From: an archaeon | GTDB lineage: Archaea > EX4484-52 > B79-G9 | DNA: 64,000 nucleotides | Assembly (NCBI GenBank): GCA_043813875.1 | Contig: JBDRKP010000054.1 | Coordinates: 751 to 64,750, forward strand | Reading direction: 5' to 3' | Shown: positions 4,502-64,000 of the stretch, piece by piece | Layout of the letters: each line of letters starts with the position of its first letter | Numbering within the stretch: the stretch's first letter is position 1 | The notes under the pieces: model-generated | Seen by the model: the letters and a program-made list of their open reading frames with translations, nothing else | What the model was told of the DNA's origin: nothing | Database searches by the model: none | Program-made: the position numbers and the translations under genes

Positions 4502-6103
4502 TTAGTATTTTTGTTCATCCATTCTTCATATTCTGTATGTTCTCTCTGTAATTCTAATGATTTTACTCACTAAATTCTCACATTTATCTGCAATTTTTTC
4601 AAAAATTCTCTATTTCCTGTGTATTTTCTTTGGTTTTGTGTTCATTTCGACATATTGTTTCTTCATGTGAATTCACTTTCAATTCATGCAGTATATTTGT
4701 CTATGGCTGTGTTCTGATTCAAAACATTCATCTTCATTGCGATGAATATCACGTATCTTCATGTTTTACGGATATTCTTCGTGAATGATATCTGTTTCGT
4801 TAGTAGTTTGCTCTATTGCCGCAGAAATTTATTTATGGGTAATAATTCCTAAAAAAGTGTTATGGCTATGATCCTTATTTTTGGTCTGAGTTATCTCTTT
4901 TGAGTATAGCAATTCCGATGCTATTCCAACTCAGATGCGATTTGTATTTCCGCCTCAATATTCCTTTATCTTGTTGTTTATGTTGCTCTTAGTATGCTTC
5001 TTTTTTTTTTGTGTCATCTCCCGTTAGAGTCAACAGTGATTATTTTGGTTGGTCACATACTCATTTTGAGTGAAGTCGATGTATATGGAAATCGCAGTCA
5101 TTCAGCCGAAATATTGCTTTTTGCTATCTTATGCATGATTCGTATGATGCGTGTCTCACATTTGTTCTGGCAATTATTGATTGTGCGTGCTCTTGTGAAT
5201 TTTATTTGTTCTTTCTTTTGTGATATGATCTTGCAGGTTACCTTGTTTCTCATCCCGCTGTATTCTCTGCGGCTCTCCATATCCTCATTGATGGTAGTTT
5301 GATTTATGATTGAGGTCATTGATTTGGTGACTTACGCTGATGCTATGTGTGTTTTGTTCTCTGTTTAAAAAAGTGGCTTTTGGTCTTTGGCATTATTTTT
5401 TAATCGTAAACTGTCTTGTGATCGTCTCTTCATGAACTTGTCCTCGGACAATCAACCTTCTTTTTGAACGGTTGCCATAATGCTTGTTCTTTTTATTCGG
5501 GGTCTTCATAATTTCCAGTTATTATCCGATACTATCTGTGGTTACGAGGGCAAAAGTATCTGTTTTTTTATTTTGTATTTGTATGTATTTTATTGTTGGA
5601 TTATATTTGGGATAATTGGCTTATTTACAATCCTGTCTCCCGCATTAATATGATTATAGACCCCCGTAACGGGGTTACTATCTCTGTTTACTCGCGGGTA
5701 TTTTTATCGCCCTTGTCCGTTACTATCCGATACTATCTTTCCTAGTATCTATGGTTACTATAGATACTGCTCTATTGTTATCGTTTTTAAAGTAACGGAT
5801 ATGTTTGGTTATTTGTGCGCAGGCTATCGTTTTTCTTATGGTGGTTACTGTATCGGATACTATCGATATTATCGATATCATGGTAACCGATACTATCCAT
5901 TACTCTTATTTGTGTCTTTTTCATTGCCTATGATGCCTCTCTTGTCAATGAAAAAGCTTGAAATCCGCCAATCATACCGAAATTTCATGATTTTTCAATA
6001 AACTCTTATAAAAAACAGTATCTATAAGCCTATTTGTATGCTAGTAACCGTGGTTACCATTATGAGAAACCATATTATGTGTCTATTGCTATCGGTAACG
6101 GCT
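4502..6103. repeat. 1.6-kb AT/T-rich non-coding region with an iteron array (GGTTACTAT / CCGATACTATC / GGTAACC units, at least 8 copies between about 5520 and 6110)
   Basis: Direct reading shows no long ORF apart from a Tyr-rich repeat artefact. The motifs CCGATACTATC occur at about 5524, 5718, 5856 and 5890. GGTTACTAT/GTAACGG/GGTAACC occur at about 5672, 5745, 5800, 5842, 5883, 6048 and 6095. Confidence 0.5.
5950..5997. repeat. 48-bp palindromic intergenic element, copy 1 (A5-GCTTGAAAT-loop-ATTTCATGA-T5)
   Basis: GAAAAAGCTTGAAATccgccaatcataccgAAATTTCATGATTTTTCA. The TGAAAT/ATTTCA stem is flanked by A5 upstream and T5 downstream, so it is symmetric on both strands. Confidence 0.55.
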
Positions 6104-17094: not shown

Positions 17095-17182
17095 TATTTA
17101 AAATTTATCTGTTCTGCTTGCTCATCATAAATCTCTTACAATTTTATTTATGTTTTTATTGCATATCGTCTGCATTGGCAAT

Positions 17183-17228
17183 AAAAAGCTTGAAATTCTC
17201 CCATCAGGCCGGGATTTCATGATTTTTA
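17183..17228. repeat. 48-bp palindromic intergenic element, copy 2
   Basis: AAAAAGCTTGAAATtctcccatcaggccggGATTTCATGATTTTTA. It overlaps the 3' end of the HEPN gene and lies upstream of the thrC start. Confidence 0.55.
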
Positions 17229-17677
17229 AAGAACAAGGATGCGTTATCGATAGATTCTTTAGCCGGCTCAACATTCGCCTGCGGTAGCTTCTGGTATGTA
17301 TATTCTCCTCTCTTCCTTTTCTCAAGCGAGTATATGCTCAATAGTTCTTCGGCGCGCAGAAACATTTTCTTGTATATAGTCAATAGATGAACGTCAAGCC
17401 TGCCTGTCTTCACAAAAAAATCATCAAAAGCATCAATCGTTTTCTTATGAACCTCGGGCGCATCCGTTTTGATATCCTCCGTCATAAGAATTGCCTTTGC
17501 CGAATAGAAGATGCAGTAATATGCATGGCTTATGGCCGAACTATAGAACGTGAAATTCTTCTCGAGCTTGAATTCTTCTTTTTGAAGTCTTTCGTTATAA
17601 GAAGTCTCAAAAAGCAGTTGAGCCGCAACAAGTTCAGTCTCAGCTCTTTGCAGATACAGCTCAGCCAATGCGTTCAT
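17204..17677 (-). CDS. HEPN-domain protein (partner of the upstream nucleotidyltransferase)
   Basis: An all-alpha 157-aa protein that overlaps the NTase gene by 17 bp. Its N-terminal LAELYLQRAETELVAAQLLFE is typical of a HEPN helix. Confidence 0.6.
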   Translation of the reverse strand: MNALAELYLQRAETELVAAQLLFETSYNERLQKEEFKLEKNFTFYSSAISHAYYCIFYSAKAILMTEDIKTDAPEVHKKTIDAFDDFFVKTGRLDVHLLTIYKKMFLRAEELLSIYSLEKRKRGEYTYQKLPQANVEPAKESIDNASLFFKNHEIPA

Positions 17678-23891: not shown

Positions 23892-24004
23892 ACCGATCAC
23901 CATCAAACAATTCAATGAAACTCTATTACCATTACTGCTTCATCTTTTTATAATTTATGTCATTATCGGTTGGACAACCTCAAAAAACAGAAACATTTAA
24001 ATAC

Positions 24005-24040
24005 TATGCGCAACAACATAATGTTATGCTGCATAATGTT
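24005..24040. repeat. 36-bp direct repeat, upstream copy (TATGCGCAACAACATAATGTTATGCTGCATAATGTT)
   Basis: A near-identical copy lies at 25449-25484 (TATGCGCTAGAACATAATGTTTTTGTGCATAATTTT). Each contains the near-palindrome AACATAATGTT. Confidence 0.5.
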
Positions 24041-25438: not shown

Positions 25439-25448
25439 TTTTATTGTT

Positions 25449-25484
25449 ATGCGCTAGAACATAATGTTTTTGTGCATAATTTTA
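25449..25484. repeat. 36-bp direct repeat, downstream copy
   Basis: See the upstream copy. This copy reproduces the start region of the ATPase gene (NV-MLHNV versus NVFVHNF). Confidence 0.5.
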
Positions 25485-33298: not shown

Positions 33299-34147
33299 AT
33301 GATTGAAATACTATCTTACGCATTCATGCAGAAAGCATTTATTTCTGGAATAGTTATAGCTATTGCATGCTCGCTTTTGGGAATGTTTTTAGTATTAAGA
33401 AAATTCTCATTAATTGGAGATGGAATTGCTCACATCTCTTTTGGAGGAGTCGCTACCGGACTGTTATTTAATATAACACCATTTACGGGTGCTCTTTTGT
33501 TTGGATTAATAGGTTCATTTGGAATACTTAAGCTGAAAGAAAAGTCGCATTTACATGGGGATGCTGCAATAGGAATAGTAAGCCATGTAAGTTTGGGTCT
33601 TGGAATATTTATTGCCAGCATTGCAAGTGGTTTTAATGTAGATATATTGAGTTATTTGTTCGGAAGCATACTTTCAATAAAGACCAATGAGTTGGTTTTA
33701 TCTATTTTTTTGGCATTGACAGTTATTGCATTTATTCTCAGTTACTATAAAGATTTGTTTTATATCTCATTTGATGAAGAATCTGCAAAAGTTTCTGGAA
33801 TAAACGTAGATTTCCTGAATTCGATGCTTATCGTTTTGACAGCAGTTACAATTGTCTGCTCAATGAATGTGGTTGGGCTTATGCTTGCATCATCATTAAT
33901 AATATTGCCCGCTGCATCTGCCTTACAAGTTAAAGCAAGTTTTAAGAGAACTTTATTATATGCTGTGGTTATCTCAGTATTTTCAGTAGTTTCTGGACTC
34001 GTTATTGCATATTATTATGACTTTGCAGTATCTGGAACTATTGTTCTTATTAACGCCTTTGTTTTTCTATCGCTTTTGGTCTATAATAAATTGCAAACAT
34101 ATTTTTCATCACATATAAATTCTAAACCCGTAGATGAAAAAGCTTGA
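33299..34147 (+). CDS. znuB: Zinc ABC transporter permease (island copy)
   Basis: Polytopic ZnuB-family permease. Its TGA stop lies inside copy 3 of the 48-bp palindromic element (AAGCTTGA). Confidence 0.85.
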   Translation: MIEILSYAFMQKAFISGIVIAIACSLLGMFLVLRKFSLIGDGIAHISFGGVATGLLFNITPFTGALLFGLIGSFGILKLKEKSHLHGDAAIGIVSHVSLGLGIFIASIASGFNVDILSYLFGSILSIKTNELVLSIFLALTVIAFILSYYKDLFYISFDEESAKVSGINVDFLNSMLIVLTAVTIVCSMNVVGLMLASSLIILPAASALQVKASFKRTLLYAVVISVFSVVSGLVIAYYYDFAVSGTIVLINAFVFLSLLVYNKLQTYFSSHINSKPVDEKA

Positions 34148-34183
34148 AATCCCCCAATAACATCAAAATTTCATGATTTTTCA
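34136..34183. repeat. 48-bp palindromic intergenic element, copy 3
   Basis: GAAAAAGCTTGAAATcccccaataacatcaAAATTTCATGATTTTTCA, located between the convergent znuB (island copy) and the thioredoxin-like gene. Confidence 0.55.
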
Positions 34184-34316
34184 GTAAGAAAGTTGAGTGC
34201 GTCCCTTTAGTTACAAAATCCCCCTCGTTCTTAGTTTAGTAAGCCGAAAATTGAATATATCAATACTTTGTCCTATATTTGCCCATCTCTACCATAGCCA
34301 CGCCTCATTCTGTGGG

Positions 34317-34721
34317 CTAAAGCGCGCATCCTGAAAGTTCAGATAGCTTCAATAAAGGCTGTATCCCCGGATAGTTCTCACCCATGATGACCCATGTGGG
34401 ATACCCTTCGACCCCTGCATCAAGGCACTTCTGCATGTTCTTGTCGCAGTCGACATAATTCACGCGCGCAAAAGAATCCTCAAAGAGCGCCTTCTGGTCC
34501 TTGCAATGTGAGCACCACTCTGTCCCGTACATGACCGCTCCTTTGTCCGTGAGGCACTGCGCGAACGCATCAAACTGCCCCGGCGCAGCCGACGGCTTCA
34601 TCAAAGAGAAAGCCACAAAAAGGACAATGATCCCCACGACAATGATTCCTGCAACATTATTTTTTTTGTCATTATTTTCATTTTTTAGCTTGCTTGCCAT
34701 CTTCTTTTTCATCATGATCAC
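34317..34721 (-). CDS. Membrane-anchored thioredoxin-fold protein (CxxC)
   Basis: N-terminal TM helix and a WCSHC active-site motif with a thioredoxin-like fold length. Confidence 0.65.
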   Translation of the reverse strand: MIMMKKKMASKLKNENNDKKNNVAGIIVVGIIVLFVAFSLMKPSAAPGQFDAFAQCLTDKGAVMYGTEWCSHCKDQKALFEDSFARVNYVDCDKNMQKCLDAGVEGYPTWVIMGENYPGIQPLLKLSELSGCAL

Positions 34722-34778: not shown

Positions 34779-34890
34779 TATAGTTGACGTCGTTACTAGC
34801 TGGACAAATATAACCTATGAACCAATAGACGTCAATCTATATGGAAAAGTCATATAGTCCAAAAAGTTATGACTTTTACTATATATCTGA
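34779..34890. repeat. Approximately 110-nt structured repeat, copy A (TATAGTTGACGTCGTTACT ... AGACGTCAATCTATATGG ... inverted repeats)
   Basis: About 80% identical to 61989-62140. It contains long-range inverted repeats (TATAGTTGACGTC / GACGTCAATCTATA; AAAAGTCATA / TATGACTTTT). Confidence 0.5.
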
Positions 34891-34908: not shown

Positions 34909-35664
34909 CTATGAAACCGGTTTCATCTTATAGACTCTTGCCGCATCATCCGAATATGCAAGTTCGAATCCCTCTATCACTTCGCCATTGAGAGCCCGCC
35001 CGATATTTGTCCTCATGAATCCGATACTCAAAGGATCAACCGGCTCACCCCCGTAAGACACATAGAACGCATGTGACTTATCCTTATCCGCAGTCTGTAC
35101 ATAAAAGACGCTTGCCCCGTACTTCTCCATTACCTTCCTCAATATTTCGCTATCATACTCAGTAAAAGCCCTTGCGACATCCATAATCTTGCCATGCGCT
35201 GTGCAGTCATCGCACACAATATCATCTTTCGGCTTGCCTATATATTTAGAAACAGTAGTCGCAAGGATCTCGCGTGACGGCGCATCAAGGACAACTTCCC
35301 TCTCCGCATATCCCCTGATCATATGCCCGTGATCCCACCAGCTAAGCACCACCGCATCATCATCAGTATTCTCCTTGATCCAGTTAAGCCCGCCAACAAT
35401 CTCATCTGAAAGCATCATATCCGGCTCGACAACCTTCCCGTCCTTCACATACCGTATTTTCTTCATGTTATAAGTTGTGCCATTGGCGCTCACAACGACA
35501 TCAATGACAGTCAGGTTATACTTCCCCCCAATCACCTCAGTCCCGATAATTTCTTCAGTGAAACCGCTTGCTTGAGGCAGAGTGGCCCTGTCTTCCCTGA
35601 CGCACCCGCTAAGAAAAACAACCCCTAAAACAAAAATGATCAGAATAAATTTTCCATGGCGCAT
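34909..35664 (-). CDS. Hypothetical secreted lipoprotein
   Basis: Signal peptide with a lipobox (FLSGC). No confidently recognised domain. It contains an SWWDHGH motif. Confidence 0.45.
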   Translation of the reverse strand: MRHGKFILIIFVLGVVFLSGCVREDRATLPQASGFTEEIIGTEVIGGKYNLTVIDVVVSANGTTYNMKKIRYVKDGKVVEPDMMLSDEIVGGLNWIKENTDDDAVVLSWWDHGHMIRGYAEREVVLDAPSREILATTVSKYIGKPKDDIVCDDCTAHGKIMDVARAFTEYDSEILRKVMEKYGASVFYVQTADKDKSHAFYVSYGGEPVDPLSIGFMRTNIGRALNGEVIEGFELAYSDDAARVYKMKPVS

Positions 35665-50432: not shown

Positions 50433-51393
50433 GGCTTTGTCCCAAAATACGGTTGGTAAAATATAATTAGTACAGCGTACATATTTTATCTTGGGAAATC
50501 AAAATGAGCAGGCTGCATAAATTGTAGTGACTTTTATTCTTTATGGTTCCGTTCGACAAAAGAGCGTGGCAATATACAACGCTTCAAATGTAAGTCTTGC
50601 GGTTCTGTTTTTGTAAAAGACGACGGCTTCAGATGGAGACACAAGAGCAGGAAAACAATAATCGATAGCTTACTTCTTTCCACGAAGCTCTCTTTCAGAG
50701 AAGTCAGGGAAATCATGTATGTCAGCAAGAATACGATTTGGGCATGGCTAAAATGTTATACTGTAAAGCTTTCCGCATATCTGAAAGAGAAGATACAGAT
50801 GCAATGCGAAAAACTCCACATGGATGAGCTTTTTCTCAGTATGTGCAATGGTTTCCATTACATCTGGGATGCTATATGCAGCGACACAAAATATGGATAT
50901 TGGTTTCTTGCCGAAAAAAGAACATCAAATAATGCAAAAAAGCTGATGAGAATGAGTGCGATACCACTCGATAAACTCATAACAGACGGATTTTTCTCAT
51001 ACATACGGCCAGTAAAGGAGGTCTACGGATTACGCTTCTATTACACGAAATATCACCGCTGCGAATCCTTTGAAGACAAGAAAAACAACAATATAATCGA
51101 ACGCTTGCAGAACACATTAAGAAGATACCTGCACTTCAAGCGTGGTTTCTATAGCTGTAAGACAGGGAATGTATTCCTGGATTTCGTCAAAATATATTAC
51201 AACTTTGTCAGAAATCATATGGCGATTGGATGTACCCCTGCAGAGAAAGCAGGATTGATATGTTTCTTAGAGGAAAAGAGAGAGTATGACCGGTTGAGGA
51301 AGTTGATTGAACTCTCTTTTTTGCGTTTGTTTTACAGTTGTTGGTCATTGGTTCAATTGGATTTTGGCTCACCAACCGTAAATTGGGACAAAG
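50433..51393 (+). mobile_element. IS6-family insertion sequence, copy 1 (about 960 bp) with 20-27-bp terminal inverted repeats
   Basis: IRL GGCTTTGTCCCAAAATACGGTTGGTAA at 50433-50459. IRR is the reverse complement, CCGTAAATTGGGACAAAGCC, at about 51371-51393 (2 mismatches). The internal DDE transposase carries the IS6-type zinc-finger N-terminus. Confidence 0.75.
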
Positions 51394-51416
51394 CCGACAA
51401 CTGTCTCAGAAAATAA
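50503..51416 (+). pseudogene. IS6-family transposase, N-terminus disrupted (frameshift between MSRLHKL and the zinc-finger/HTH frame)
   Basis: The ATG at about 50503 gives MSRLHKL then a stop. The +1 frame continues RFKCKSCGSVF...LSFREVREIM into the tracked ORF 50715..51416 (HMDELF ... TDGFF ... IIERLQNTLRR, a DDE-like motif). Compare the intact N-terminus of copy 2 (MSCCIYCGS...RFYCKDCMRIF). Confidence 0.6.
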
Positions 51417-53733: not shown

Positions 53734-53904
53734 GTTTTATCTCCTAATAAAATATGGCTGCTACTATAGTCAAGGCATGAAATAAATGAGCAAACATCGC
53801 CAAAAACCAATTTGCCTTGATCTATATGGGAAGGCACTCTGCTCAATTTATTAGTGCCTTCACTATAGTTATTTAAATTACCAACCGTATTTTGGGACAG
53901 TGCC
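53500..53904 (-). mobile_element. Partial IS6-family element, copy 2 (inverted orientation), retaining the left terminal IR
   Basis: TTACCAACCGTATTTTGGGACAGTGCC at 53878-53904 is the reverse complement of the copy-1 IRL with 2 mismatches. Homology to copy 1 ends near 53500. Confidence 0.6.
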
Positions 53905-61639: not shown

Positions 61640-61909
61640 TCATCCGTTTCCGTAACCGCCATCAATATCCACAACAAGCGGCATGCTGGCATCCGCCTTC
61701 AGCCTTTTGATAAAACCCTCATCATCAACATCGACAAACGATTTTTCGACAACAATCAACCCTGCATCCCCCTTCTCGATGGCTTCATTGATTTTAATTT
61801 TGACATCCTTTCTGTCTTTCACGACAATCCCCCGGTCAAACCCGCCGTAAAGGAACCCCGCGACAAAGAATTCATCCCCGATAACAACCGACATCATATT
61901 ATTGGCCAT
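61640..61909 (-). CDS. atpF: A/V-type ATP synthase subunit F
   Basis: An 89-aa protein (VIGDEFFVAGFLYGG...) immediately upstream of atpA. Matches subunit F. Confidence 0.8.
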   Translation of the reverse strand: MANNMMSVVIGDEFFVAGFLYGGFDRGIVVKDRKDVKIKINEAIEKGDAGLIVVEKSFVDVDDEGFIKRLKADASMPLVVDIDGGYGNG

Positions 61910-61988
61910 ATTATTTATATATCACAGGCACCAAATAAAAAGCAATTGGTATTATCACTGAGTGAAAAATACATTATCATAATCTTCA

Positions 61989-62140
61989 GATATAGTTAAC
62001 GTCGTTACTAAAGAGACAAACTTAACCAAAAACCAAGAGACGTTAATCTATATGGCAAAGACATTAGTCCATTTTGAACGTCAGTTCAAAAGCTTGGCAT
62101 GTAAGTGCCATGAAAAGGTTATGTCTTTGACTATATTTTC
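61989..62140. repeat. Approximately 150-nt structured repeat, copy B (homolog of 34779-34890), inside the ATP synthase operon
   Basis: TATAGTTAACGTCGTTACTA ... AGACGTTAATCTATATGGCAAAGACAT ... ATGTCTTTGACTATATTTT. Relative to copy A it carries an insertion of about 40 nt. Confidence 0.5.
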
Positions 62141-62146
62141 AGCAAT

Positions 62147-62350
62147 ATGTTGATATTGCCCGTAATCCTTTTTATTCTGCTCATGACATTCATCTGGTAT
62201 CAGAACAGGAATGACGGAGCAAAGGAATACGATCTTAAATCCGTATCAGGTAGATTCTCTGGCATCGAAGGTAATCTGGAAAAGATAATCAGAAGCAGCA
62301 AGCGCCTGAAGAAAAAAATCGAGCGCCTGAAGGTCAGATATGACAATTAA
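62147..62350 (+). CDS. Small hypothetical membrane protein (antisense to the ATPase operon)
   Basis: 67 aa with an N-terminal TM helix (ILPVILFILLMTFIWY) and a coiled-coil tail. It sits between atpF and atpC on the opposite strand, immediately after repeat copy B. Confidence 0.3.
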   Translation: MLILPVILFILLMTFIWYQNRNDGAKEYDLKSVSGRFSGIEGNLEKIIRSSKRLKKKIERLKVRYDN

Positions 62351-62362
62351 GATCTTCGGGCG

Positions 62363-63565
62363 CTATCGATTCTCCATCACGATCCTCATATCATCATCAA
62401 TCTCGAATCTCACACTGTCCGTTATCCCTTTAAAGATACTCCCAAGCATCATGACCTCATTTCTCTTGAGCGCCATATACCGTAGCATCACCGCGATACT
62501 GAACTGGTTTTCCCGCGCCATCGCCTTCACATGACCTACAAGATAATCATCAAGCCTCCTTGCGATACCGTCGATCTTTCCGGTCTTAAGGAACTCATTC
62601 AGCCCGTTCTTGAACGTTTCTTCATAAGGCGTCTCCGCCATGATCACACCCATATTCTCTATTTTTTCAGCCGACATCATCGCCTTTAATTTCTCCGGAC
62701 TTATAAACAGTCCGAAAGGTATGAACTGCTCACGGTATTCATCAGCATCAGCCTTCGAAAGGATAAGTCTCATAGCAACGATGATATTCAGTATATCCGC
62801 CCTGGTGCGTGCATAATTATGGATGACAAAAGAATCCGCTTTGTTCATATTATGATCAACAGCCGATTTCTTTCCGCCAAAAAGACGCATCATATCCCCG
62901 CCCAAAACACCTCTTGCCGCATCATCATGAAGTTTCACGATATTGTATTTATCAAGCATGGCATCAAGCATTCCGGTATTATTGCCGCCATATTTTTTGA
63001 AATATCCGTCAATCACAGGATAATATTCCGTATCTTTTAGTTTTTCGATCGCTAGAGCCACATCATTAGTGAAAACAATCTCCTTCATCTTATCATGGCC
63101 TAATGCGCCGGCATCCACAAAATACTTCACTGCATCATCCTTATCGACCGGTATTTTATTGATGACAATATGCATAAGAGACAAAAGATTCCTGATCTCC
63201 CACTCCCGAAGATAATAATTGAAAAGCGGCATCGTAATCTTTGGAGAAAACTTCTGCACTTCAACAATATGGTCAACAAGATACTGGTCAAATGCCATCT
63301 GTGGGTTTTTTGAACAGATCTCAACGTTATCCATTTTGCTATAATCACTATTAGAAAGCGCCTCAATTGCGCTCTTGACCGATTTTTGGCTCGCGATCTC
63401 CCTCATTCTGGAAAGAGTTAAAAGCCTCACTTCCATCGCAGAAAGCCTTGCATTCGAATAAGCATACACAAAAAGCGGCCATACCTTGGATACGCTCAGA
63501 AAAATAGTCAATATGATAAAACCGATGATACCTCCGACAATGACGACATAAATGGGCTCAATCAT
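62363..63565 (-). CDS. atpC: A/V-type ATP synthase subunit C
   Basis: YAYSNARLSAMEVRLL matches the conserved subunit C N-terminus but is preceded by an unusual 40-aa hydrophobic extension. ATGA overlap with atpE. Confidence 0.8.
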   Translation of the reverse strand: MIEPIYVVIVGGIIGFIILTIFLSVSKVWPLFVYAYSNARLSAMEVRLLTLSRMREIASQKSVKSAIEALSNSDYSKMDNVEICSKNPQMAFDQYLVDHIVEVQKFSPKITMPLFNYYLREWEIRNLLSLMHIVINKIPVDKDDAVKYFVDAGALGHDKMKEIVFTNDVALAIEKLKDTEYYPVIDGYFKKYGGNNTGMLDAMLDKYNIVKLHDDAARGVLGGDMMRLFGGKKSAVDHNMNKADSFVIHNYARTRADILNIIVAMRLILSKADADEYREQFIPFGLFISPEKLKAMMSAEKIENMGVIMAETPYEETFKNGLNEFLKTGKIDGIARRLDDYLVGHVKAMARENQFSIAVMLRYMALKRNEVMMLGSIFKGITDSVRFEIDDDMRIVMENR

Positions 63566-64000
63566 CGCAATACCTTTTCTGTCTTTAGAGCTTCACCGAA
63601 CAATATTTTAGAGACCCCCGTCCTGATTTCATCCTCCATGCTCTTGAACATGGTATCAAACGAATAATCAAGAAACATATTATTCGATTCATCATACACG
63701 ATAAACCCGCCGCACATCTTCTGCGTCTTTATCTCAATATTGATTTTGCGCCCTGCCTCTTTTTTGATCTTCTCGATAGTCTTTTTATCAAGAACAGTAG
63801 CATTTGCCTTATTTGCGATTATCGCCAGTTTATCTCCGCCGCATTCACCTATCCCTCGTCTTAAAAGAGAAATCAATTCCTTTTTCAATTTCATCGGCTT
63901 CAGAGCATTCAATTCCTCCATTGCCTCATCAATGGTCTCATTAATGATTTCTCCCCTGGCATCGCGCACTATTCCGTTGATCTCGACATTCGCTTGAGAT
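63562..64000 (-). CDS. atpE: A/V-type ATP synthase subunit E (5' end probably beyond the window edge)
   Basis: The C-terminal region (GGFIVYDESNNMFLDYSFDTMFKSMEDEIR) is typical of subunit E. Coiled-coil upstream. The reading frame stays open to the window end. Confidence 0.7.
   Translation of the reverse strand, partial: SQANVEINGIVRDARGEIINETIDEAMEELNALKPMKLKKELISLLRRGIGECGGDKLAIIANKANATVLDKKTIEKIKKEAGRKINIEIKTQKMCGGFIVYDESNNMFLDYSFDTMFKSMEDEIRTGVSKILFGEALKTEKVLR

What the first reader, a model, noticed from the sequence alone, without database searches (positions are those of the whole stretch)
61989..62350. Approximately 150-nt structured repeat plus an antisense small-protein ORF inserted inside the A-type ATP synthase operon (between atpF and atpC); a second copy is at 34779-34890
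atpC, atpF, atpA, atpB and atpD are otherwise contiguous or overlapping. A 450-bp gap separates atpC from atpF. It contains an element about 80% identical to the one upstream of the thioredoxin-like gene (shared blocks TATAGTT(G/A)ACGTCGTTACTA, AGACGT(C/T)AATCTATATGG, G(A/T)CAT...ATG(A/T)C stems). Both copies have long-range inverted repeats able to form an extended stem-loop, which fits a MITE or a structured ncRNA. Copy B is followed by a 67-aa TM plus coiled-coil ORF on the opposite strand. An insertion inside a highly conserved operon is unusual, and it may attenuate or separate atpE-C from atpF-A-B-D expression.
Basis: seen in the sequence. Interest (0 to 1): 0.55.

Follow-up and report, generated by a model that had tools for sequence, protein, structure and literature searches.

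The report
MITE copy between ATP synthase genes
The repeat is one copy of a small non-coding "jumping DNA" element (a MITE) that is scattered through the genomes of a group of tiny sediment archaea, and the small gene beside it is the leftover tail of a larger gene that was cut off at that spot; the kind of element is ordinary, although this family seems undescribed.

Summary
The window holds three copies, not two: A 34779-34883, B 61991-62135 and C 53765-53867.

They belong to a dispersed repeat with at least 57 strong copies in at least 6 related DPANN ("Nanohalarchaeota"-labelled) MAGs and one Guaymas metagenome.

The element has the defining features of a MITE:
- a 103-nt core with no ORF and about 31-37% GC, against 42% for the window
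- sharp ends, TATAGTT...AACTATA
- imperfect terminal inverted repeats of about 29 bp
- a TA target-site duplication, shown by one empty site and by a gene whose reading frame is restored only if the element plus one TA is removed
- no orientation bias relative to neighbouring genes
- different insertion sites in different species

Two internal hairpins are kept by many compensatory changes. Longer forms, including copy B, carry extra hairpins.

The 67-aa "antisense ORF" is the C-terminal membrane anchor and tail of a truncated 443-aa surface-protein gene. The truncation breakpoint lies within 11 nt of copy B.

In relatives the ATPase cluster is already split at atpC|atpF, and atpF keeps a conserved upstream block of its own. 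The element therefore lies in a spacer between two units, on a rearrangement scar, and not inside a tight operon.

No transposase partner was found. Verdict: a new member of a known kind.

The parts
61991..62135 (+). MITE copy B, 145 nt: a long form made of the core plus an apical two-hairpin module. The TA at each end (61991-61992 and 62134-62135) is the presumed duplicated target.
   Evidence: Covariance model score 103.8 bits. Sharp ends shared with all family members. TA duplication inferred from the family.
61996..62046 (+). Hairpin I of copy B. Arms are TTAACGTC (61996-62003) and GACGTTAA (62039-62046), with a 35-nt loop containing the conserved CGTTACTAAA and CCAAAAACCAAGA.
   Evidence: 7 of 8 pairs show changes on both sides across the family, and 97.5% of cells are paired.
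62051..62135 (+). Hairpin II of copy B. Arms are TATGGCAAAGACAT (62051-62064) and ATGTCTTTGACTATA (62121-62135).
   Evidence: 10 of 14 pairs show changes on both sides. Copy B carries its own compensated variant, GGCAAAGAC/GTCTTTGAC.
62071..62118 (+). Optional apical module in the loop of hairpin II: hairpin TTTTGAAC-GTCA-GTTCAAAA, then AGCTTGGCA-TGTAAG-TGCCATGAAAA.
   Evidence: Absent from copies A and C. The same module at the same point is seen in L038, L034, L021 and L063 from three other MAGs. Copy B is 87% identical to L038 over its full length.
34779..34883 (+). MITE copy A, the 105-nt short form. It lies between the 3' end of a 251-aa gene (34909-35664, minus strand) and the start of a thioredoxin-like gene (34317-34721, minus strand).
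   Evidence: Covariance model score 112.6 bits. 90% identical to a copy in another species, L006. Thioredoxin Pfam hit.
53765..53867 (+). MITE copy C, 103 nt, of the diverged "C-type" subfamily. Both stems have different sequences that remain fully complementary: TCAAGGCA/TGCCTTGA and GAAGGCACT/AGTGCCTTC.
   Evidence: Covariance model score 102.9 bits, against only 23.6 bits by nhmmer. 87-89% identical to C-type copies in two other MAGs.
62147..62350 (+). 67-codon ORF. It is the C-terminal remnant (transmembrane anchor plus basic tail) of a truncated surface-protein gene.
   Evidence: tblastn with the 443-aa protein of L045: residues 378-441 align to 62147-62338, 48% identity, no gaps, E = 6e-16. 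No other part of that protein is found in the window. Annotated only as a hypothetical protein in the public MAG.
62136..62146 (.). Breakpoint interval. Homology to the intact surface-protein gene starts at 62147 and the MITE ends at 62135.
   Evidence: by direct reading of the sequence.
62312..62318 (-). T7 run on the atp strand, 45 nt after the atpC stop codon. It is a possible termination signal for the atp...E-C unit. This is inferred from what is generally known about archaeal oligo-T termination.
   Evidence: Sequence read.
61910..61955 (-). Conserved block directly upstream of atpF, ATAATACCAATTG.T.TTTATTT..TGC.TGTGATATATA. It is the presumed atpF promoter and leader.
   Evidence: About 85% identical to the atpF upstream region of L049, whereas the AtpF proteins are only 62% identical.
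61640..61909 (-). atpF, the first gene of the atpF-A-B-D unit.
   Evidence: PF01990 on the identical protein.
62363..63565 (-). atpC, the last gene of the upstream unit.
   Evidence: PF01992.

Best explanation
The repeat is a non-autonomous DNA transposon, a MITE. Its 103-nt core has imperfect terminal inverted repeats of about 29 bp, starting TATAGTTGA..., and codes for nothing. It is presumably moved in trans by a transposase that inserts at TA and duplicates it, which is the habit of the IS630/Tc1-mariner group. That last step is inferred, because no partner was found.

The core folds into two side-by-side hairpins whose pairing is preserved by compensatory changes. Longer forms carry extra hairpins at three fixed points. 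Copy B is such a long form.

Copy B lies in the spacer between two transcription units of the A-type ATPase cluster (...atpE-atpC and atpF-A-B-D). It sits exactly at the breakpoint where a convergent surface-protein gene lost its first ~377 codons, and the remaining 67 codons form the "antisense ORF". The most likely history is a MITE insertion followed by an adjacent deletion, or recombination between two MITE copies. This is inferred.

The effect on ATPase expression is probably small, because atpF keeps its own conserved upstream block and a T7 run follows atpC.
For: Multi-copy and dispersed:
- The 5' 20-mer alone finds 42 loci in GTDB representative genomes. Nearly all are "Nanohalarchaeota"-labelled MAGs from Guaymas and cold seeps; one is a chance Bacteroidota hit.
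- It also finds 23 contigs in one Guaymas metagenome.
- A covariance model finds 57 strong copies. Many sit at contig ends.

Sharp common ends with unrelated flanks. The ends are 76% complementary over 29 bp.

TA duplication:
- L028 is filled and the 88%-identical L052 is empty. The empty site is the left flank + TA + the right flank.
- L022 versus L069 also fits.
- In L029 the element splits a flavodoxin-like gene between codons 46 and 48. Only removal of the element plus one TA restores the frame and the length of the intact homologue.

Orientation relative to neighbours is random: 12 sense/sense, 10 antisense/antisense, 6 convergent, 4 divergent.

Insertion sites differ between species.

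Low GC, 0.31-0.37 against 0.42 for the window.

Hairpins: 96-98% of cells are paired, 15 of 27 and then 17 of 22 pairs change on both sides, and 0 of 500 shuffles reach this.

Remnant ORF.

Split cluster: the loci (L044-L047) show it; L049/L050 keep atpC and atpF adjacent, 210 nt apart, and that spacer holds no element. Conserved atpF upstream block.

These properties match the published description of prokaryotic MITEs: under 200 bp, TIRs, TA termini, A+T-rich, TSD, transcripts forming stable stem-loops, and short and long forms (PMC2229807, PMC10969869).
Against: - No autonomous element with matching ends was found. Nothing turned up in 100 ORFs next to copies (only the 25 most frequent families are listed). 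There was no pair of matching ends 0.4-4 kb apart enclosing a gene. Viral, phage and plasmid collections gave nothing.
- The internal stems covary far more than a plain transposase-binding model needs.
- Copies in different species are 87-90% identical, while coding DNA of the same genomes is about 70% identical.
- One orthologous copy shows 1 change in 156 nt against 7-13% in its flanks.

These points fit recent spread with constraint on mobility, but they also leave room for a host-level or RNA-level role. The link between copy B and the deletion rests on position only.
Confidence: 0.85

Rival explanations
1. The element is, or has become, a host-useful structured RNA or DNA module that merely spreads like a MITE. 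Examples would be a transcript-processing or stabilising hairpin set, an insulator or terminator between genes, or an outward-facing promoter carrier, as shown for Correia elements in Neisseria.
For: - Strong compensatory change in both hairpins across three subfamilies that keep the architecture but not the stem sequences.
- Wobble pairs on the + strand outnumber A.C pairs 13 to 4, and there is one constant G.U.
- One orthologous copy is far better conserved than its flanks.
- Identity between species is 87-90%.
- Published precedents for MITE-borne promoters and RNase III sites (PMC10969869).
Against: - Random orientation and no preferred gene partner.
- Copies that break genes.
- Truncated copies and copies invaded by other elements.
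- No conserved promoter in the flanks.
- No Rfam family.
- The 13:4 asymmetry is weak and not corrected for shared descent.
- Compensatory change in hairpins can also arise from template switching or arm-to-arm repair without selection on RNA. This is my own knowledge and was not tested.
Confidence: 0.1
2. The element is a single-strand DNA transposon derivative: a palindrome-associated element of the IS200/IS605 type, or a REPIN-like element moved by a RAYT-like HUH enzyme. In those families hairpins are the recognition signal.
For: The hairpins covary, as reported for REPINs (my own knowledge). There is a weak strand asymmetry. All three window copies share one orientation.
Against: The element has 29-bp terminal inverted repeats and a TA duplication. 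IS200/IS605 derivatives have neither. There is no conserved tetranucleotide to the left of the element beyond TA. Orientations are mixed within single contigs such as L010, L014 and L021. No HUH or TnpB-like gene was seen nearby.
Confidence: 0.03
3. The element is a cis-regulatory RNA (attenuator or riboswitch-like leader) that separates atpE-C expression from atpF-A-B-D expression.
For: It lies 81 nt upstream of atpF and folds stably.
Against: - It is on the strand opposite to the atp genes.
- Copies A and C and about 55 others sit next to unrelated genes in all four orientations.
- The related atpC-atpF spacer in L049 lacks it.
- Four related loci have no atpF after atpC at all.
- The conserved atpF upstream block lies between the element and atpF.
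Confidence: 0.02

Closest known systems
Correia / NEMIS elements of Neisseria (bacterial MITE)
   Same: About 107-bp and 155-bp forms that differ by an internal block. Terminal inverted repeats, TA at the termini with target duplication, A+T-rich, mostly intergenic, dozens to hundreds of copies. Transcripts fold into stable stem-loops, and no transposase has been assigned (PMC2229807, PMC10969869). From my own memory, the termini also begin TATAG; I did not check this.
   Different: Different domain of life and no sequence similarity. Here the two halves fold as two separate hairpins, and the longer forms add hairpins at three points. Promoter, IHF-site and RNase III functions are shown for Correia and untested here.
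RUP of Streptococcus pneumoniae and other IS630-related MITEs, including Sulfolobus SM1
   Same: TA target with duplication, about 100 bp, and short inverted repeats. RUP is thought to be moved by IS630-Spn1 on the basis of matching ends (PMC2229807). IS630-family elements occur in archaea (PMC13343696), and Sulfolobus carries MITE families SM1-SM4 with 25-44 copies (PMC10969869).
   Different: No IS630-like element with TAGTTGAC ends was found, so the family assignment rests on the TA duplication alone.
REPINs / REP elements moved by RAYTs
   Same: Short, dispersed, intergenic hairpin-forming repeats whose stems keep pairing through compensatory changes.
   Different: REPINs have no TA duplication or long terminal inverted repeats and are tied to a single-copy RAYT gene. 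Neither applies here.
MITEs recorded in bulk for DPANN archaea (census of 8220 archaeal genomes)
   Same: High MITE density is reported for some DPANN genomes, at 105-146 per Mb (PMC11602168). The window has 3 copies in 64 kb, roughly 47 per Mb.
   Different: That census gives no description of this family. I could not check its sequence files because none are held.

Membership tests
MITE (miniature inverted-repeat transposable element) | Small and without coding capacity | tested here: met
   103-nt core, with long forms up to about 220 nt; the only longer copy seen, about 400 nt, is L036/L059. No ORF..
MITE (miniature inverted-repeat transposable element) | Terminal inverted repeats | tested here: met
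   First and last 29 nt are 76% complementary, and the first 9 nt are perfectly complementary (TATAGTTGA / TCAACTATA)..
MITE (miniature inverted-repeat transposable element) | Target-site duplication | tested here: met
   TA, from the empty site L052 versus the filled site L028 and from frame restoration in the L029 flavodoxin-like gene.
MITE (miniature inverted-repeat transposable element) | Many dispersed copies, with insertion sites that differ between genomes | tested here: met
   57 strong copies in at least 6 MAGs. Window regions homologous to L021, L022, L041 and L004 lack the copies those loci carry.
MITE (miniature inverted-repeat transposable element) | An autonomous relative with the same ends that encodes the transposase | tested here: inconclusive
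   None found in 42 + 24 loci, in 100 neighbouring ORFs, or in viral, phage and plasmid collections. MAGs often lose IS elements, so absence is weak evidence.
IS630 / Tc1-mariner-derived MITE | Insertion at TA with TA duplication | tested here: met
IS630 / Tc1-mariner-derived MITE | Ends matching those of an IS630-family element in the same lineage | tested here: inconclusive
   No such element was recovered.
IS200/IS605-derived palindromic element or REPIN | No terminal inverted repeats and no duplication; insertion 3' of a fixed tetra- or pentanucleotide | tested here: not met
   Inverted repeats and a TA duplication are present. Left flanks are variable.
Any described RNA family (Rfam 15) | Match at or above the family's gathering score | tested here: not met
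   No match in the whole window. Only chance-level hits (E of at least 3) in the two regions.
Cis-regulatory leader or attenuator RNA | Fixed orientation and position relative to a recurring gene family | tested here: not met
   All four orientation classes are populated and the neighbours are unrelated.

The most novel reading that the evidence does not exclude
The element may be more than a selfish MITE. It could be a transposon-spread, multi-hairpin module whose structure is selected at the RNA or single-strand DNA level and which the host uses, for example to end, process or insulate transcripts between tightly packed genes of very small DPANN genomes. That would explain three things: why three subfamilies keep the same two-hairpin architecture with different stem sequences; why copies stay 87-90% identical between species whose genes are about 70% identical; and why one orthologous copy is far better conserved than its flanks.
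Probability: 0.1. Interest if true: 0.6.

Novelty: new member of a known kind. Interest (0 to 1): 0.3.

Why it matters
For annotation. The 64/67-aa "hypothetical protein" between atpC and atpF should be read as a gene fragment. The atp cluster of this clade should be treated as two units. The repeat explains many contig breaks in these MAGs.

For biology. It adds a well-defined, apparently active MITE family, with a TA target, three subfamilies, and short and long forms, to uncultivated DPANN archaea with small genomes. Mobile elements are poorly described in this group. It also gives a concrete case of a MITE sitting on a deletion scar next to essential genes.

The unusually clean compensatory pattern makes the family a useful test case for a general question: is hairpin conservation in MITEs selected, or is it a by-product of replication and repair?

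Tried and rejected
- Rfam on the whole window and, at permissive thresholds, on both regions: nothing above chance. No tRNAs.
- A loop-loop pseudoknot (GGACA/TGTCC; compensated to GAGCA/TGCTC in copy C) looked promising (85% paired). It is more simply part of the long terminal inverted repeat, and it is not kept in other C-type copies, so I dropped it.
- Target duplications longer than TA: none in about 40 flank pairs.
- Search for an autonomous parent. I looked for matching ends 0.4-4 kb apart, multi-copy ORFs among the loci, and Pfam hits on candidate ORFs. These gave only AAA_14/DUF4143 ATPases and housekeeping families.
- The one IS-like element found (two DUF1670 ORFs, L074) has unrelated ends and is nested inside MITE copies, so it is not the partner.
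- IMG/VR, phage and plasmid collections: no copy.
- Homologue search with the 67-aa ORF returned only itself. The informative match came from tblastn against loci fetched for atpC.
- The internal hairpin pair \"a+b\" was considered as an independent mini-element. Hairpin b occurs only inside the MITE; the search pattern for hairpin a matched nothing, so hairpin a was not tested. I treat the pair as an optional internal module.
- I could not check the supplementary sequence files of the MITE census, because none are held.

Full report

Yes. The window (42% GC) is 99.7% identical to a contig of MAG GCA_043805675.1. On the minus strand it carries:
- atpE, 63562-63969
- atpC, 62363-63565
- a 453-bp gap
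- atpF, 61640-61909
- atpA, atpB and atpD

These come from the ORF list, with Pfam families taken from the identical public gene calls.

The gap contains the repeat and a 67-codon + strand ORF (62147-62350). The two named copies share exact 18-20-mers that are not expected by chance: 2 found against 0.01 and 0.12 expected. The ungapped blocks are 81% and 88% identical.

Reading the sequence gives these ends:
- Copy A is 34779-34883.
- Copy B is 61991-62135.
- B equals A plus a 48-nt two-hairpin insertion at 62071-62118.

Both copies fold better than shuffles. Rfam has nothing.

**2. A large family with sharp ends**

Scanning one genome per GTDB species for the 5' 20-mer gave 42 loci. Nearly all come from MAGs labelled Candidatus Nanohalarchaeota: Guaymas B72_G9, the cold-seep MAGs CSMAG_1836, CSMAG_1788, CSMAG_321 and CSMAG_1430, and AB_03_Bin_175. 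There was one chance hit in a Bacteroidota MAG. NCBI places that phylum in the DPANN kingdom Nanobdellati.

The JGI metagenome scan gave 23 contigs from the Guaymas sample behind B72_G9, plus one other.

In every copy similarity starts exactly at TATAGTT and ends exactly at AACTATA, and the flanks are unrelated. The shortest form is 103 nt.

A covariance model built from 20 short copies finds 57 strong copies in the loci. In the window, with filters off, it finds exactly three. Many copies lie at contig ends, as expected for a repeat that breaks assemblies.

**3. It is a transposon: inverted repeats, TA duplication, polymorphic sites**

*Inverted repeats.* The first and last 29 nt are 76% complementary, and the first 9 nt are perfectly so.

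*Empty sites.* Joining the two flanks of each copy and searching the other loci gave junction-spanning matches. The clearest is L028 (AB_03_Bin_175, filled) against L052 (B72_G9, empty), with flanks 88% identical:
- empty: ...TTTATCTATA-TA-AAAC...
- filled...TTTATCTATA-[TA-TAGTT...AACCA-TA]-AAGC...

L022 versus L069 fits the same rule.

*Independent proof.* In L029 the element splits a flavodoxin-like gene. tblastn with the intact homologue of L025 gives residues 21-46 ending 2 nt before the element and residues 48-160 starting at its far end, in a different frame. Removing the element plus one TA gives GAT TTA GTT AAT CTG GAA CAG = DLVNLEQ. This matches the homologue in frame and in length. 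Keeping TATA, or keeping nothing, shifts the frame.

*Orientation.* Relative to neighbouring ORFs there is no bias: 12 sense/sense, 10 antisense/antisense, 6 convergent, 4 divergent.

*Stop codons.* The ends TATAGTTGA often supply the stop codon of an abutting gene.

*Site differences between species.* Window regions homologous at about 70% to L004, L021, L022 and L041/L042 do not carry the copies seen in those loci.

*Composition.* The copies are A+T-rich, 0.31-0.37 GC.

All of this is the textbook description of a prokaryotic MITE (PMC2229807, PMC10969869). A TA duplication is the habit of the IS630/Tc1-mariner group, which occurs in archaea (PMC13343696). That assignment is inferred, because no partner element was found, including in viral, phage and plasmid collections.

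**4. Structure**

The core forms two adjacent hairpins:
- Hairpin I is nt 6-13 paired with 49-56. Its loop carries the conserved CGTTACTAAAT and CCAAAAACCAAGA.
- Hairpin II is nt 61-74 paired with the last 15 nt.

| Alignment | Cells paired | Pairs changed on both sides | Shuffles reaching this | Paired when partner is slid |
|---|---|---|---|---|
| 20 short copies | 96.3% | 15 of 27 | 0 of 500 | 29-49% |
| 25 copies aligned to the model, including diverged subfamilies | 98.3% | 17 of 22 | 0 of 500 | 31-43% |

The second alignment leans towards the structure because it was fitted to the model.

Three subfamilies keep the architecture with different stems:
- main: TTGACGTC
- C-type: TCAAGGCA (window copy C, L060, L006)
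- D-type: L033

By contrast, pairing the two ends against each other shows almost no covariation (score 0.055 against 0.303). The stems are therefore maintained as intrastrand pairs, not just as two protein-binding sites.

Wobble pairs on the + strand outnumber A.C pairs 13 to 4, and there is one constant G.U. This is weak and not corrected for shared descent.

Long forms add hairpins at three fixed points:
- in loop I
- between the two hairpins ("a" and "b")
- in the apical loop of hairpin II, as in copy B

These appear. The "b" hairpin occurs only inside the element; hairpin "a" could not be tested because its search pattern matched nothing.

One orthologous pair, L041/L042 (flanks 87-93% identical), differs by 1 substitution in 156 nt plus a 56-nt a+b indel.

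Why the stems are so well kept is not settled. It could be a requirement for transposition, selection at the RNA level, or arm-to-arm repair and template switching.

**5. The small ORF is a gene remnant**

tblastn of the 67-aa product against loci fetched for atpC homologues hit the 3' end of a 443/444-aa gene in L045-L047. The reverse search aligns residues 378-441 of that protein to 62147-62338 without gaps (48-50% identity, E = 6e-16). No other part of it is present in the window.

The full protein has a signal peptide, a long extracellular part with a weak CARDB hit, a C-terminal membrane helix and a basic tail. The ORF is just the anchor and the tail.

Homology begins 11 nt after the end of copy B, so the truncation breakpoint coincides with the MITE. 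The sequence on the other side of B is the atpF upstream region. I infer a MITE-associated deletion or recombination between two copies. Position is the only evidence for that link.

The public MAG annotates the fragment as a hypothetical protein.

**6. The atp context**

AtpC homologues are at most 55% identical.
- In four related loci (L044, L045, L046, L047; L045 and L046 are the same arrangement from two assemblies, so three distinct contexts) the cluster runs atpH-I-K-E-C and then stops. What follows is a convergent gene or a toxin-antitoxin set plus the 443-aa gene. There is no atpF.
- In L049/L050, atpC and atpF are 210 nt apart with no copy of the element.

The 46 nt upstream of atpF are about 85% identical between the window and L049, although the proteins are only 62% identical. 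This indicates that atpF has its own promoter and leader. A T7 run lies 45 nt after the atpC stop codon on the atp strand.

The junction is therefore a natural boundary in this clade. Copy B lies on the opposite strand, upstream of the conserved atpF block. A regulatory role for the atp genes is unlikely.

**7. Comparison and novelty**

The closest described things are bacterial TA-type MITEs:
- Correia/NEMIS, with 107-bp and 155-bp forms
- RUP, linked to IS630-Spn1
- the Sulfolobus SM families

These are described in PMC2229807 and PMC10969869. A census reports high MITE densities in some DPANN genomes (PMC11602168) but does not describe this family. A full-text search for the end sequence found nothing.

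I rate it a new member of a known kind. The features worth noting are the very clean hairpin covariation, the conserved architecture across subfamilies and species, and the modular long forms.

**Scores**
- Interest: 0.3.
- Most novel reading not excluded: a host-used or RNA-level structured module spread by transposition. Probability about 0.1, interest 0.6 if true.

Noticed in passing
window 5948-6001, 17180-17233, 34134-34187; also L049 5660-5800: A second small repeat family: A5-GCTTG, a hairpin, then CATGA-T5. It looks like a bidirectional terminator. The copy at 34134 overlaps the stop codon of the + strand gene 33299-34147 and faces the convergent thioredoxin-like gene. The same kind of module is nested inside some MITE copies (L025, L073) and lies between atpF and atpA in L049.
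   Followed up: partly
window 50433-50459 (+), 51371-51395 (-), 53878-53904 (-): Near-identical 27-mers that encode the last eight residues, G(F/T)VP(K/I)YGW then stop, of three different genes. One of them is the HypF-like gene next to MITE copy C. This may be a shared C-terminal signal.
   Followed up: partly
L074 88-1790 (also L055/L002 and L060/L005): A 1.7-kb IS-like element with 22-bp inverted ends (GATAGTGTCATATGACCCCTAC) and two tandem DUF1670 ORFs (Pfam E = 5e-55 and 1e-51). It is inserted in the loop of an internal hairpin of long-form MITE copies at two different loci. Either it targets that loop, or the MITE carried it along.
   Followed up: partly
L029 6006-6108: A MITE copy interrupts a flavodoxin-like gene between codons 46 and 48 in the Guaymas MAG B72_G9. 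The gene is intact in CSMAG_1836 (L025 6610-7122).
   Followed up: yes
L041 1179-1334 versus L042 765-976: An orthologous MITE copy in two roughly 93%-identical genomes differs by 1 substitution in 156 nt, whereas its flanks differ by 7-13%, plus a 56-nt internal two-hairpin indel. A stretch of about 170 nt of intergenic DNA upstream is also almost invariant.
   Followed up: partly
L007 2155-2178: Only the first 24 nt of the MITE remain, fused to a fragment of the terminator-like repeat and then to the 3' end of a convergent gene. This is another truncation at a MITE.
   Followed up: partly
window 23996-24040 and 25439-25483: A 45-nt direct repeat (78% identical) upstream of two neighbouring + strand genes. 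The covariance model gave a weak, probably chance, hit at 23949-24035 (21 bits).
   Followed up: no
L041 (labelled Methanosarcinales) and L016 (labelled Methanobacteriota): Contigs carrying the MITE sit in MAGs with non-DPANN labels. L041 is 93% identical to a Nanohalarchaeota-labelled contig (L042), so it is probably a binning or labelling error. The MITE could serve as a lineage marker.
   Followed up: no
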